NCBI GenBank assembly: GCA_963849525.1 | Contig: CAWKHL010000004.1 | Location: 48,509-112,508 of the forward strand | Origin: an uncultured Acidobacteriota bacterium | GTDB lineage: Bacteria; Acidobacteriota; Vicinamibacteria; Vicinamibacterales; SCN-69-37 | DNA length: 64,000 nucleotides | Direction of reading: 5' to 3' | Part shown: piece after piece, positions 50,605 through 54,826 of the stretch | Numbering within the stretch: position 1 is the first letter of the stretch | Layout: each line of letters opens with the position of its first letter | Translations under genes and position numbers: made by a program | Notes under the pieces: generated by a model | Told to the model about the DNA's origin: nothing | Database searches by the model: none | Seen by the model: only the letters and a program-made list of their open reading frames with translations

Positions 50605-53600
50605 ATGAGACCAAATCTCCACGACAAGGGACAGCTGACGTCGGACTTCGATGCGATTCGCATCAGCCTCGCGTCGCCCGAGCGCATTCTGCAGTGGTCG
50701 CACGGCGAGGTGACCAAGCCGGAGACGATCAACTACCGCACGTTCAAGCCGGAGCGGGACGGCCTGTTTTGCGCGAAGATCTTCGGCCCGGTCACCGACT
50801 GGGAGTGCCTCTGCGGCAAGTACAAGCGGATGAAGCACCGCGGCGTCATCTGCGACAAGTGCGGCGTGGAGGTGACCCAGGCCAAGGTGCGCCGCGAGCG
50901 GCTCGGCCACATCGCGCTCGCCACCCCGGTGAGCCATGTGTGGTTCTTCAAGGGGCTGCCGAGCCGTATCGGGCACCTGCTGGACCTGTCGCTGCGCGAC
51001 CTCGAGCGCATTCTCTACTTCGAGGCCTACGTCGTCGTCGACGCCGGCGAGAGCGACCTCAAGGACAAGCAGCTCCTGACCGAGGAGCAGTTCCGCCAGG
51101 AGCGCGAGCGCTGGGGCTTCAAGTTCAAGGCGCAGATGGGCGCCGAGGCCATCAAGGAGCTGCTGCGGCGCGTGAACATCGAGCGTCTGGCCGAGGAGAT
51201 GCGCGAGAAGATGCGCCACGAGACGTCCGCGCAGAAGAAGCTGAAGTACGCCAAGCGGCTGAAGGTCGTCGACTCGTTCCGCCGGTCCACGCAACAAGCC
51301 GGAATGGATGATTCTCGACGTCGATTCCCGTGATTCCGCCCGAGCTGCGGCCCCTGGTGCCGCTCGACGGCGGGCGGTTCGCCACGTCCGACCTGAACGA
51401 TTTGTACCGGCGCGTCATCAACCGCAACAACCGGTTGAAGAAGCTGATGGAGCTCAAGGCGCCGGACGTGATCATCCGCAACGAGAAGCGGATGCTGCAG
51501 GAGGCGGTCGACGCGCTGTTCGACAACGGCCGCCGCGGCCGCGTGCTGCGCGGCGCCAACAACCGTCCGCTCAAGTCGCTGTCCGACACGCTCAAGGGGA
51601 AGCAGGGCCGCTTCCGGCAGAACCTGCTCGGCAAGCGCGTCGACTACTCGGGCCGCTCGGTCATCGTCGTCGGGCCGGAGCTGAAGCTGCAACCAGTGCG
51701 GGCTGCCGAAGAAGATGGCGCTCGAGCTGTTCAAGCCGTTCATCTACAACAAGCTCGAGGAGCGCGGCCTGGTCTCGACAATCAAGCAGGCCAAGGAGAT
51801 GGTCGAGCAGCAGCGGTCGGAGGTCTGGGACATCCTCGAGGAAGTCATCCGCGAGCACCCGGTCCTGCTGAACCGCGCGCCGACGCTGCACCGGCTGGGC
51901 ATCCAGGCCTTCGAGCCGGTGCTCGTCGAGGGCAAGGCCATCCGGATCCATCCGCTCGTCTGCACGGCGTTCAACGCGGACTTCGACGGCGACCAGATGG
52001 CGGTGCACATCCCGCTCTCGCCGGAGGCGCAGATCGAGGCCTCCGTCCTGATGATGGCGTCGAACAACGTGCTCTCGCCGGCCTCGGGCCAGCCGATTGC
52101 GATTCCGTCGCAGGACATCGTGCTGGGCTGCTACTACCTGACCAAGTCCAAGGCGGGCGCCAAGGGCGAGGGCCGCGCGTTCGCGTCGGTCGATGACGTG
52201 CTGCTCGCGCTCGAGAGCGGCGAGGTCGAGACGCTGTCGCCGATCCGCCTGCGCTTCACGGGCCGGCTGGTCGACATGACGGCGGCGCGCGACTCGCAGG
52301 ACATGCATGGACGCGGTCGAGCAGCAGGTCGACAACCGGATCATCAACACGACCGTCGGCCGCGTCATCTTCAACACGGCCCTGCCGAAGGAGATGCCGT
52401 TCATCAACGGGCTGCTCAAGAAGAAGGGCCTGCAGCAGGCGGTCCGCTACTGCTACCTCAAGCACGGGCTCGAGAAGACCGTCGAGATGCTCGACAGCCT
52501 GAAGAACCTGGGCTTCACCTACGCGACGCGCTCGGGCCTGTCGATTGGCATCGACGACCTCGATCATTCCGGAGAAGAAGGTCGAGTTCGTCCAGCAGGC
52601 GCGCAACGAGGTCATCAAGGTCGAAGGCCAGTACCAGGACGGCGCGATCACGAACGGCGAGCGCTACAACAAGGTCATCGCCATCTGGTCGGAGGTCACC
52701 GAGAAGATCGCCGACGAGATGTTCGGCGAGATGGAGGCGCTCGACAAGTCGGGGCGCAACTTCAATCCCGTCTACATCATGGCCGACTCGGGCGCGCGCG
52801 GCAGCAAGCAGCAGATTCGGCAGCTCGCCGGCATGCGCGGGCTGATGGCCAAGCCCTCGGGCGAGATCATCGAGACGCCGATCACGTCGAACTTCCGCGA
52901 AGGCCTGACGGTGCTGCAGTACTTCATCTCGACGCACGGCGCCCGTAAGGGGCTCGCCGACACGGCGCTCAAGACGGCCGACTCGGGCTACCTGACGCGC
53001 CGGCTCGTCGATGTGGCGCAGGACGTGATCATCTCCGAGGACGACTGCGGCACGCTCGACGGCATCGAGGCGCGGCCGATCGTGGACTCGCGGCGGCGAG
53101 ATCGTCGAGCGGCTGAGCGACCGGATCATCGGCCGCGTGGCGCTCGAGCCGATTGTCGATCCGTCGTCGGGCGACGTGATCGTCGACGGCGGCCGGCGAG
53201 ATCGACGAGGCGCTGGCCGAGCTGATCGAAGACGCCGGCATCGAGCGCGTGAAGATCCGCTCGGTGCTGACCTGCGCGTCGCGCCGCGGCGTGTGCGCGA
53301 AGTGCTACGGCCGCGATCTGTCGACCGGGCGGCTGGTCGAGATGGGGCTGGCGGTCGGCGTCATCGCGGCACAGTCGATCGGCGAGCCGGGCACCCAGCT
53401 CACGATGCGGACGTTCCACATCGGCGGCACGGCGTCGCGGGTGGCCGAGCAGTCCACCCTCGAGGCGCGTCACAAGGGCATCGTGCAAGTTCGACGGCCT
53501 GGTGGCGGTCGAGGGCCGCGACCGCGGCGTGCCAGGCGGCGGCAAGTCGCTCATCGTCATGAACCGCAGCGGCTCGATCAACATCGTCGACGACAAGGGC

Positions 53601-54826
53601 GTCGTCCGCGAGCGCTACTCGGTCGTCTACGGCGCGCGCCTCAAGGTGACCGACGGCCAGCACGGTCGAGAAGGGGCAGATCCTGGTCGAGTGGGATCCG
53701 TACACGTTCTCGATCCTCACCGAGCAGGGCGGGACGGTCCGCTTCAAGGACATCATCGACAAGGTGACCGTCCACGAGGAAGTGGACGAAATCACCGGCC
53801 TCTCGCGACTGATCATCGTCGACTCGCCGGACGAGAAGAAGCAGCCGGCGATCGAGATCATTGCGGCCGACGGTCGAGGCGCTGCACAAGTACCACATGC
53901 CGTCGAATGCTCACTTGATGGTGACCAACGGCGACACCGTGGTGGCCGGCGACGTCATCGCGAAGATCCCGCGCGAGACGACCAAGACGAAGGACATCAC
54001 GGGCGGTCTGCCGCGCGTGGTCGAGCTCTTCGAGGCGCGGAAGCCGCGCGAGACGGCCGTCATCTCCGAGATCGACGGCACGGTGCGGCACGGCGGCATC
54101 GTCAAGGGCATGCGCAAGATCCTCGTCGTGCCCGGACGAGGGCGCCGAGGCGCGCGAGTACTCGCTGCCGCGCGGCGTCCACGTCAACGTGCAGGAAGGC
54201 GACCGCGTGCGCGCCGGCGAGCCGCTCATGGACGGCCCGCGCAACCCGCACGACATCCTCGCGGTGCTCGGCGAGAAGGAGCTGCAGGCCTACCTGGTCA
54301 ACGAGATCCAGGAGGTCTACCGGCTCCAGGGCGTCGGCATCAACGACAAGCACATCGAGGTCATCGTCCGGCAGATGATGCGGTGGGTGAAGGTCGAAGA
54401 GGTGGGCGACACCGAGTTCCTCATCGAGGAGCAGGTGGACAAGTTCCGCTTCCAGGAAGAGAACGAGCGCGTGCTCGTCGAATGGCGGCTTGCCGGCGAA
54501 GGGCCGGCCGCTGCTGCTCGGCATCACGAAGGCGTCGCTCTCGACCGACTCGTTCATCTCGGCGGCGTCGTTCCAGGAGACGACGCGCGTGCTGACCGAG
54601 GCGTCGATCTCCGGCAAGGTCGACTACCTGCGCGGCCTCAAGGAGAACGTCACGATGGGCCGGCTCATCCCGGCCGGCACGGGCTTCGACTGGTACCGGC
54701 ACATCGACGATTCCGCCGGACGAGCCGCCGCCGCCGCCGCCGCCGTCGCCCGAGGAGCTCGAAGCTCAGCGGGACATGGACGACCTCACCGACGCGGACT
54801 ACATGTTCCGCGACGACGGCGAGTAG
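50605..54826 (+). pseudogene. rpoC: DNA-directed RNA polymerase subunit beta', frame broken 13 times (all +1)
   Basis: The conserved beta' sequence is recovered only by stepping one frame forward at about 51290, 51323, 51692, 52305, 52562, 53091, 53193, 53488, 53664, 53872, 54134, 54482 and 54714. Motifs [22 protein letters not shown] and FQETTRVLT are all present. Stop TAG 54824-54826. Confidence 0.93.

What the first reader, a model, noticed from the sequence alone, without database searches (positions are those of the whole stretch)
50605..54826. rpoC reading frame steps forward by +1 thirteen times in a row
The conserved beta' sequence can only be read by changing frame at 13 points. These are at about 51289-51292, 51323, 51690-51693, 52303-52306, 52562, 53090-53091, 53191-53195, 53486-53489, 53664, 53872, 54134, 54480-54483 and 54712-54715. 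The frame index cycles 1,2,0,1,2,0..., so each junction is one surplus nucleotide and never a loss.

Every inter-junction segment is stop-free and keeps invariant motifs: the N-terminal Zn site [38 protein letters not shown] and FQETTRVLT. Removing one A from CAAC at 51690-51693 recreates the universal LHQCGLP.

Junction contexts are heterogeneous, with no common slippery heptamer, and most are not homopolymers. Beta' is essential and a decaying pseudogene would not stay this conserved. So this is either a block of insertion-type consensus errors (most likely) or, far less likely, some recoding phenomenon.
Basis: partly seen in the sequence, partly recalled or inferred. Interest (0 to 1): 0.7.

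Follow-up and report, generated by a model that had tools for sequence, protein, structure and literature searches.

The report
Assembly insertion errors in rpoC
The RNA polymerase beta' gene really is broken by 13 extra single bases, but they look like consensus errors of a long-read metagenome assembly, most likely two strain variants written side by side, so this is an artefact and not biology.

Summary
rpoC (50605-54826, +) needs exactly 13 single-base removals and no additions. That gives a 1402-aa beta' which is 94% identical to intact relatives (Vicinamibacterales, Acidobacteriota) and colinear with solved beta' structures.

It is not recoding or gene decay. All 13 sites are private to this sequence. 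There is no shared motif, no homopolymer run and no nearby old-frame stop. The repaired protein shows no relaxed constraint. The same lesion also hits rpoB (3 insertions, 1 deletion), nuoL (2), a PMT-type glycosyltransferase (1) and an O-antigen-ligase-like gene (1).

Among 81 related loci, 13 of 39 long-read-type MAGs (36 of them Nanopore MFD MAGs) carry frame switches in rpoC, almost all +1. None of 42 short-read assemblies does.

In 9 of 13 rpoC sites, the surplus base and its neighbour form a C/G pair at a codon wobble position, and relatives carry either base there (null 14%, p=1e-5). I infer that a collapsed strain mixture had SNPs rendered as "both alleles in tandem", which explains why the error is always +1.

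Verdict: artefact, low interest. A real recoding reading keeps about 1% probability.

The parts
50605..54826 (+). rpoC (RNA polymerase beta') coding region, interrupted by 13 surplus single bases. The repaired ORF is 1402 aa.
51291..51292 (+). Surplus base 1. AC[G C]AAC reads as ACG or ACC (Thr), a wobble C/G doublet.
51323..51324 (+). Surplus base 2. GTC[G A]TT reads as GT[C/G] ATT or GTC [G/A]TT. Relatives have V-V and V-I here.
51691..51692 (+). Surplus base 3. C[AA]C is the only site that looks like a plain homopolymer extension. Removing one A restores LHQCGLP.
52305..52306 (+). Surplus base 4. AT[G C]ATG, a wobble C/G doublet.
52561..52562 (+). Surplus base 5. CT[C G]ATC. Relatives carry CTC or CTG (Leu).
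53090..53091 (+). Surplus base 6. TC[G C]GGC. Relatives carry TCG or TCC (Ser).
53185..53186 (+). Surplus base 7. GTC[G A]CGGCGGCC. Removing the A matches L062 exactly. Placement is ambiguous up to about 53195.
53485..53486 (+). Surplus base 8. GT[G C]AAG. Relatives carry GTG or GTC (Val).
53663..53664 (+). Surplus base 9. CA[C G]GTC. Relatives carry CAC or CAG.
53874..53875 (+). Surplus base 10. GG[T C]GAG, a wobble T/C doublet (Gly).
54133..54134 (+). Surplus base 11. CC[C G]GAC. Relatives carry CCC or CCG (Pro).
54477..54478 (+). Surplus base 12. CTC[G T]CGAAT. Relatives carry GCx or TCG (Ala/Ser).
54706..54707 (+). Surplus base 13. ATC[G A]CGATT reads as AT[C/G] ACG or ATC [G/A]CG.
46143..50462 (+). 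rpoB (beta). The first 2.6 kb is clean. Three surplus bases lie at 48788-9 (AC[G C]AAG), 50255-6 (AC[C G]GGC) and 50310-1 (CC[C G]GGG), and one base is missing at about 49931. The repaired ORF is 1439 aa.
7066..7067 (+). Surplus base in the nuoL C-terminus (TT[C G]TTC).
   Evidence: repaired NuoL matches TIGR01974 positions 2-629 of 630 in one stretch
7139..7140 (+). Second surplus base in the nuoL C-terminus (GG[C G]TTC).
14288..14289 (+). Surplus base in a PMT/GT39-type glycosyltransferase gene (CT[C G]ATT).
   Evidence: the PMT domain spans the junction
18759..18760 (-). Surplus base in an O-antigen-ligase-like gene (CT[G C]GTC on the minus strand).
   Evidence: Pfam Wzy_C lies downstream and does not span the junction, so this site rests on frame signal and ORF continuity.

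Best explanation
The 13 extra bases are not in the organism's DNA. They are consensus errors of a long-read (most likely Nanopore-only) metagenome assembly.

The most likely cause is that reads from two closely related strains were collapsed onto one contig over about 48.8-54.7 kb. At sites where the strains differ by one base, mostly C versus G at codon wobble positions, the assembler or polisher kept both alleles one after the other instead of choosing one. Each such SNP therefore adds exactly one base and never removes one, so every shift is +1. The true gene is an ordinary, intact, single-copy rpoC encoding a 1402-aa beta' subunit.

Shown here:
- the insertions themselves;
- that they are private to this sequence;
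- that the same lesion occurs in other genes of the window and in other long-read MAGs, and is absent from short-read assemblies;
- that the doublets match alleles seen in relatives.

Inferred:
- that two strains were present;
- that the polisher's error model prefers 'two deletions' over one rare C<->G substitution;
- that the window itself comes from such an assembly.

Confidence that this is an artefact of some kind is about 0.96. Confidence in the specific allele-doublet mechanism is about 0.75.
For: 1. Exactly 13 private 1-nt insertions and no 1-nt deletion against 9 intact relatives. Twelve are still private in a 68-sequence alignment.

2. The repaired protein is 94% identical to P0001 and colinear with PDB beta' chains. 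It has only 3 private replacements at otherwise invariant columns, against 0-19 in intact relatives.

3. The same lesion occurs in rpoB (3 insertions, 1 deletion), nuoL (2), a PMT-type glycosyltransferase and an O-antigen-ligase-like gene. The window total is 20 insertions and 1 deletion (p=1e-5). Seventeen of the 21 lie in 5.9 kb (p=3e-13).

4. The lesion tracks the technology.
   - rpoC: 13 of 39 long-read-type MAG loci have frame switches, 18 of 19 of them +1. None of 42 short-read loci does (Fisher p=2e-5).
   - rpoB: 9 of 37 long-read loci against 0 of 29 short-read loci, with 19 of 21 switches +1.
   - L076 (an MFD MAG) has 9 private 1-nt insertions in rpoC.
   - MFD-LR MAGs are Nanopore R10.4.1 assemblies from soils with noted microdiversity (bioRxiv 10.1101/2024.12.19.629313).

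5. The allele-doublet signature.
   - At 9 of 13 rpoC sites, two different single-base deletions both give sequences compatible with relatives. Random insertions give 24-25% (p=0.001).
   - At the same 9 sites the two corrections differ C against G at a wobble column (null 14%, p=1e-5).
   - The 7 sites examined after the idea was formed (3 in rpoB, 4 elsewhere) can all be read as wobble C/G doublets (p about 2e-4 or less). Two of them (50255-6, 50310-1) could equally be homopolymer extensions.
   - As an independent test, 15 of 24 private insertions in long-read relatives are allele-compatible, against 6.0 expected (p=1e-4).

6. Only 5 of 16 rpoB/rpoC insertions could be homopolymer extensions.
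Against: - No reads are available, so neither the absence of the bases from the DNA nor the presence of two strains is shown directly.
- The source of the window could not be identified, so 'long-read assembly' is inferred from the error pattern and from relatives.
- Four of 13 rpoC sites do not meet the allele-compatibility test with 9 relatives, and one (51691-2) is a simple AA run.
- Seven of 20 sites create a TCGA tetramer (null 5.6%, p=7e-5 post hoc). The doublet model alone does not predict this, so a context preference of the basecaller or polisher may contribute.
- It is not explained why tuf and the ribosomal protein genes in the same window are clean.
- I found no paper describing this exact 'both alleles kept' artefact. 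The MFD paper attributes Nanopore errors to homopolymers and low coverage.
- The doublet statistics on the 13 rpoC sites are partly post hoc.
Confidence: 0.75

Rival explanations
1. The bases are an assembly artefact with a different cause: random or context-dependent long-read insertion errors (low local coverage, basecaller or polisher bias, base modification) that are unrelated to strain polymorphism.
For: - The insertion-only bias and the long-read against short-read contrast fit any technology-linked error.
- TCGA is over-represented at the sites (7 of 20 against 5.6%).
- One site is a homopolymer extension.
- The MFD paper links Nanopore errors to coverage and homopolymers.
Against: - The surplus base matches an alternative allele seen in relatives far more often than random insertions do.
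- Sites avoid homopolymers (5 of 16 against about 0.45-0.5 expected).
- A sequence-context error should recur across all 64 kb rather than cluster in 5.9 kb.
- TCGA is created by the insertion and is not present in the presumed true sequence.
Confidence: 0.2
2. The insertions are real mutations. This rpoC, with rpoB, is a recently inactivated pseudogene, for example a redundant copy or a dying lineage.
For: The sequence as given cannot encode beta' in one frame. No read data exclude real mutations.
Against: - rpoB and rpoC are essential, and here they sit in the canonical rplKAJL-rpoBC context.
- There is no excess of private amino-acid replacements (3, against 0-19 in intact relatives).
- There are no in-frame stops inside segments.
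- Twenty insertions against one deletion, all of 1 nt, is the opposite of the deletion-biased, mixed-length indel spectrum of bacterial pseudogenes (established knowledge).
- The same lesions appear in nuoL and other housekeeping genes.
- The pattern follows sequencing technology, not phylogeny.
Confidence: 0.02
3. The bases are real and beta' is made by recoding: 13 programmed +1 ribosomal frameshifts, transcriptional slippage or RNA editing.
For: All shifts go in one direction and every segment is stop-free. This is what first drew attention.
Against: - No site is shared with any of 67 aligned relatives.
- There is no common motif (at most 0.3 bit per position).
- The next old-frame stop lies 39-551 nt away, so there is no prfB-like stop or hungry codon at the site.
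- There are no A/T runs for slippage.
- Thirteen sequential inefficient shifts would give negligible full-length protein.
- Identical lesions in short-read-free MAGs only point to the method.
Confidence: 0.01

Closest known systems
Indel errors in long-read-only assemblies that fragment ORFs. From my own knowledge: Watson & Warr 2019; frameshift-correction tools such as proovframe and MEGAN-LR. The IDEEL test is used in Sereika et al. 2022 (PMC9262707).
   Same: Single-base indels split conserved genes into adjacent ORFs. Several genes on one contig are affected. The lesion is absent from short-read assemblies of relatives.
   Different: The classical Nanopore error is a deletion in a homopolymer. 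Here the errors are almost only insertions, mostly outside homopolymers, at wobble positions, and they match alternative alleles.
Consensus problems caused by strain microdiversity in metagenome-assembled genomes. Microdiversity is measured as polymorphic-site rate in PMC9262707 and in bioRxiv 10.1101/2024.12.19.629313.
   Same: Soil Vicinamibacterales MAGs come from samples with many co-occurring relatives. The errors cluster in one approximately 6-kb stretch, as expected for a locally collapsed strain pair.
   Different: Those papers discuss fragmentation and MAG yield, not a 'both alleles in tandem' insertion. That mechanism is my inference.
prfB (RF2) programmed +1 ribosomal frameshift
   Same: A +1 direction inside an essential, conserved gene.
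   Different: prfB has one site, a conserved CUU UGA C motif with an upstream SD-like element, and it is shared across bacteria. Here there are 13 private sites with no motif and no stop.
Transcriptional slippage rescuing frameshifted genes in endosymbionts (poly-A tracts)
   Same: An essential gene that is out of frame in the DNA yet apparently needed.
   Different: Slippage requires long A/T homopolymers in AT-rich reduced genomes. This genome is 67% GC and the sites are not homopolymers.

Membership tests
Long-read consensus indel artefact | Removing or adding single bases restores a full-length, colinear ortholog. | tested here: met
   13 deletions give a 1402-aa ORF that is 94% identical to P0001 and aligns in one stretch to PDB beta'.
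Long-read consensus indel artefact | Unrelated genes on the same contig carry the same kind of lesion. | tested here: met
   rpoB, nuoL (2 sites), a PMT-type glycosyltransferase and an O-antigen-ligase-like gene.
Long-read consensus indel artefact | The lesion class is present in other assemblies made with the same technology and absent from short-read assemblies of relatives. | tested here: met
   rpoC: 13 of 39 long-read loci against 0 of 42 short-read loci. rpoB: 9 of 37 against 0 of 29. Nearly all switches are +1. The other loci were classed by contig naming, which is an inference.
Long-read consensus indel artefact | Raw or orthogonal reads do not support the extra bases. | not testable with these tools
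   No reads are available, and the source record of the window was not found.
Strain-SNP 'both alleles kept' consensus error (proposed mechanism) | The surplus base plus its neighbour equal two alternative alleles of one naturally variable column. | tested here: met
   9 of 13 sites against 14-25% for random insertions. 15 of 24 in long-read relatives against 6.0 expected. All 7 later-examined sites can be read as wobble C/G doublets; two of them could also be homopolymer extensions.
Strain-SNP 'both alleles kept' consensus error (proposed mechanism) | Reads at each site split into two alleles, each lacking the surplus base. | not testable with these tools
   This needs read pile-ups.
Programmed +1 ribosomal frameshifting | The shift site is conserved in orthologs. 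| tested here: not met
   All sites are private. The 9 close intact relatives and the 68-sequence alignment lack them.
Programmed +1 ribosomal frameshifting | A slippery or hungry-codon motif with a 0-frame stop or stimulatory element at the site. | tested here: not met
   No positional conservation (at most 0.3 bit). Old-frame stops lie 39-551 nt downstream.
Transcriptional slippage | A long A or T homopolymer at each site. | tested here: not met
   The contexts have no such runs, and only 5 of 16 sites touch even a 2-4 nt run.
Pseudogene | Relaxed selective constraint, seen as excess replacements or in-frame stops. | tested here: not met
   3 private replacements at invariant columns against 0-19 in intact relatives. 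The segments are stop-free.
Pseudogene | A natural indel spectrum: deletion-biased with mixed lengths. | tested here: not met
   20 insertions and 1 deletion, all of 1 nt. The expected spectrum comes from established knowledge.

The most novel reading that the evidence does not exclude
The surplus bases are truly present in the genome, and a functional beta' (and beta, NuoL and others) is produced by a pervasive, motif-independent +1 correction at the RNA or ribosome level in this Vicinamibacterales lineage. The evidence here does not strictly exclude this, because no reads, transcripts or peptides could be examined.
Probability: 0.01. Interest if true: 0.95.

Novelty: not a real feature. Interest (0 to 1): 0.08.

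Why it matters
For biology it does not matter. The organism almost certainly has a normal rpoC, and the locus should be annotated as a frameshifted consensus, not as a pseudogene or a recoding candidate.

The practical value is methodological.
- In Nanopore-only soil MAGs of this clade, a third of the genomes carry +1-only frameshifts in rpoB or rpoC. These are phylogenetic marker genes used for GTDB-type trees and for completeness estimates.
- The errors appear to mark strain-level SNPs. If so, strain-aware polishing or a simple 'wobble doublet' filter could remove them, and their density could flag locally collapsed strain mixtures.
- Scans for recoding should treat insertion-only frameshifts at wobble positions in long-read MAGs as artefacts.

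Tried and rejected
- **Identifying the source contig.** Exact-protein look-up of three window ORFs found nothing on record. The single genome-contig scan returned only other species, at most about 90% nt identity. No same-species reference was available.
- **Programmed frameshift.** I looked for a shared motif, adjacent stops and homopolymers and found none. A promoter and terminator scan of the gene showed nothing above shuffles.
- **Pseudogene.** A private-replacement count showed no relaxation.
- **Generic tests that turned out weak.** 'Any wobble doublet' and 'synonymous doublet' gave 13 of 16 against 0.58-0.63 and 9 of 16 against 0.40-0.46 (p=0.04-0.27). Only the C/G-specific and allele-compatibility versions discriminate.
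- **Methylation or context motif.** TCGA enrichment is real in the window, but the tetramer is created by the insertion and is weak in relatives. It is left unexplained, not adopted.
- **First tblastn census.** One search was invalid because the query file held 120 proteins. It was redone. The L064 'switch' is a duplicated rpoC 3' fragment, not a frameshift, and was excluded.
- **Other Viterbi frame changes.** Those at 4293, 25654, 26858, 27621, 29013, 34187, 34927, 36845 and 42168, and the in-frame stops at 21918 and 22791, are ordinary gene boundaries.
- **Tool failures.** Paper full-text searches failed five times and one paper look-up by DOI failed. Two papers were read by identifier instead.
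Full report
**1. What is there**

The window is 64-73% GC, typically about 67%, with GC3 around 95%, so the coding frame is easy to read from base composition. Between 50605 and 54826 the high-GC3 phase advances by one position thirteen times.

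Translating the fourteen segments and joining them gives a complete RNA polymerase beta' subunit. A search of 5.8 billion proteins puts it at 94% identity over 100% of its length to intact 1400-1405-aa beta' proteins of Vicinamibacterales (Acidobacteriota). Upstream lie tRNAs, tuf, secE, nusG, rplKAJL and rpoB, the canonical context.

**2. Exact nature of the junctions**

I aligned the window's DNA with nine intact rpoC genes of relatives at about 88-90% nt identity.
- Exactly thirteen columns contain a base only in the window.
- There is no single-base deletion.
- All other indels are multiples of three in variable regions.

Removing thirteen bases yields a 4209-nt ORF (1402 aa) with every catalytic motif. 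It aligns in a single stretch with solved beta' structures.

**3. It is not confined to rpoC**

- rpoB is clean for its first 2.6 kb. It then has three single-base insertions and one deletion, and repair gives a 1439-aa ORF.
- Outside rpoB and rpoC, most frame changes are true gene boundaries.
- Four further +1 lesions exist. Two are in the C-terminus of nuoL, where repaired NuoL matches TIGR01974 positions 2-629 of 630 in one stretch. One is in a PMT-type glycosyltransferase, where the domain spans the junction. One is in an O-antigen-ligase-like gene.

The window total is 20 insertions and 1 deletion (p=1e-5). Seventeen of the 21 lie in 5.9 kb (p=3e-13).

**4. Biological readings fail**

*Recoding.*
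- None of the sites is shared with any relative.
- The twenty contexts have no conserved position, at most 0.3 bit.
- The next stop in the abandoned frame is 39-551 nt away.
- Only 5 of 16 sites even touch a short run.

*Pseudogene.*
- The repaired protein has 3 private replacements at otherwise invariant columns, within the 0-19 range of intact relatives.
- The segments carry no stops.
- An insertion-only, 1-nt-only spectrum is the opposite of natural bacterial indel bias (established knowledge).

**5. The lesion follows the sequencing technology**

Of 81 related loci, 39 have long-read-style records. Thirty-six of these are 'MFD...contig_N' MAGs from the Microflora Danica long-read catalogue. 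That catalogue was produced with Nanopore R10.4.1 chemistry, Guppy super-accurate basecalling and the mmlong2-lite workflow, from soils with noted microdiversity (bioRxiv 10.1101/2024.12.19.629313). The other 42 loci are short-read assemblies (k141_, NODE_, JGI).

| Gene | Long-read loci with frame switches | Switches that are +1 | Short-read loci with frame switches | Source |
|---|---|---|---|---|
| rpoC | 13 of 39 | 18 of 19 | 0 of 42 |; Fisher p=2e-5, |
| rpoB | 9 of 37 | 19 of 21 | 0 of 29 | |

At DNA level the long-read relatives have 26 private 1-nt insertions and one 1-nt deletion. One of them, L076, has nine insertions in rpoC, nearly as many as the window. The window's source could not be identified, but its error pattern is that of this class of assemblies.

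**6. Why always +1**

At most junctions the surplus base and its neighbour are the two bases that relatives carry at that single column. Examples:
- CT[C G]ATC, where relatives have CTC or CTG;
- TC[G C]GGC;
- GT[G C]AAG;
- CC[C G]GAC;
- CA[C G]GTC.

Formal tests:
- At 9 of 13 sites, two different single-base deletions both give relatives-compatible sequence, against 24-25% for simulated random insertions (p=0.001).
- At the same 9 sites the two corrections differ C against G at a wobble column, against 14% (p=1e-5).

The hypothesis was formed on these data, so two independent checks matter more. First, all seven sites examined afterwards (rpoB, nuoL, the glycosyltransferase and the ligase) can be read as wobble C/G doublets (p about 2e-4 or less), although two of them (50255-6, 50310-1) could equally be homopolymer extensions. 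Second, 15 of 24 private insertions in the long-read relatives pass the compatibility test, against 6.0 expected (p=1e-4).

I infer that two strains were collapsed over this stretch and that SNPs were rendered as an insertion plus a retained base. An error model in which deletions are far likelier than C<->G substitutions would prefer 'CG' with one deletion per read over 'C' with a substitution in half the reads. This last step is inference, not shown.

**7. Loose ends**

- One site (51691-2) is a plain AA run.
- Four rpoC sites fail the compatibility test with nine relatives.
- Seven of twenty sites create a TCGA tetramer (null 5.6%, post hoc p=7e-5), which hints at a context preference of the basecaller or polisher.
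- I cannot say why tuf and the ribosomal protein genes are unaffected.
- No paper I could read describes this exact artefact. The MFD preprint links Nanopore errors to homopolymers and low coverage only.

**8. Verdict**

It is an assembly artefact and not a feature of the organism. It has some methodological interest, since these are marker genes in public MAG catalogues. Interest is 0.08. A genuine recoding reading keeps about 1% probability.

Noticed in passing
window 46143-50462: rpoB carries the same defect as rpoC. There are surplus bases at 48788-9, 50255-6 and 50310-1, and one missing base near 49931 beside a G5 run. The first 2.6 kb is clean, so the damaged block starts abruptly in mid-gene.
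   Followed up: yes
window 7066-7067, 7139-7140, 14288-14289, 18759-18760: Four isolated +1 insertions lie in nuoL (2), a PMT-type glycosyltransferase and an O-antigen-ligase-like gene. All are C/G doublets at wobble positions.
   Followed up: yes
L076 6001-10216 (CAVVUL010000010.1, MFD02979.bin.2.72): Another Nanopore MAG of the clade has 9 private single-base insertions and 1 deletion in rpoC, and frame switches in rpoB. The window is therefore not a unique case.
   Followed up: partly
window: 7 of the 20 surplus-base sites (51324, 52561, 53186, 53874, 54478, 54706, 14288): The insertion creates a TCGA tetramer far more often than random insertions would (7 of 20 against 5.6%). The cause is unexplained. 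It may be a context bias of the basecaller or polisher, or chance.
   Followed up: partly
L064 10210-11593 (CAWAYH010000001.1, MFD06229.bin.2.115): Directly after the rpoC stop codon lies a 1.38-kb insert with a 109-aa ORF and a 270-aa ORF. After it comes a repeated copy of the last approximately 35 codons of rpoC. It looks like a small two-gene cassette integrated at the rpoC 3' end with duplication of the target. The functions were not determined.
   Followed up: partly
L079 about 9600-9900 (CBDATI010000028.1): This rpoC has private insertions of 62 and 106 nt (168 nt together, in frame overall), which suggests a lineage-specific insertion in beta'.
   Followed up: no
window 20291-23647: Three consecutive genes lie in the same reading frame, separated by 12-nt spacers (stops at 21918-20 and 22791-3). 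They are a TPR-repeat protein, a hypothetical lipoprotein-like ORF and an ispE-like kinase. This looks like ordinary operon packing.
   Followed up: no
window 39331-41798: A tRNA-Thr, Tyr, Gly, Thr cluster, then tuf, then tRNA-Trp, lies ahead of secE-nusG-rplKAJL. This is the standard bacterial arrangement and is free of frameshifts.
   Followed up: no
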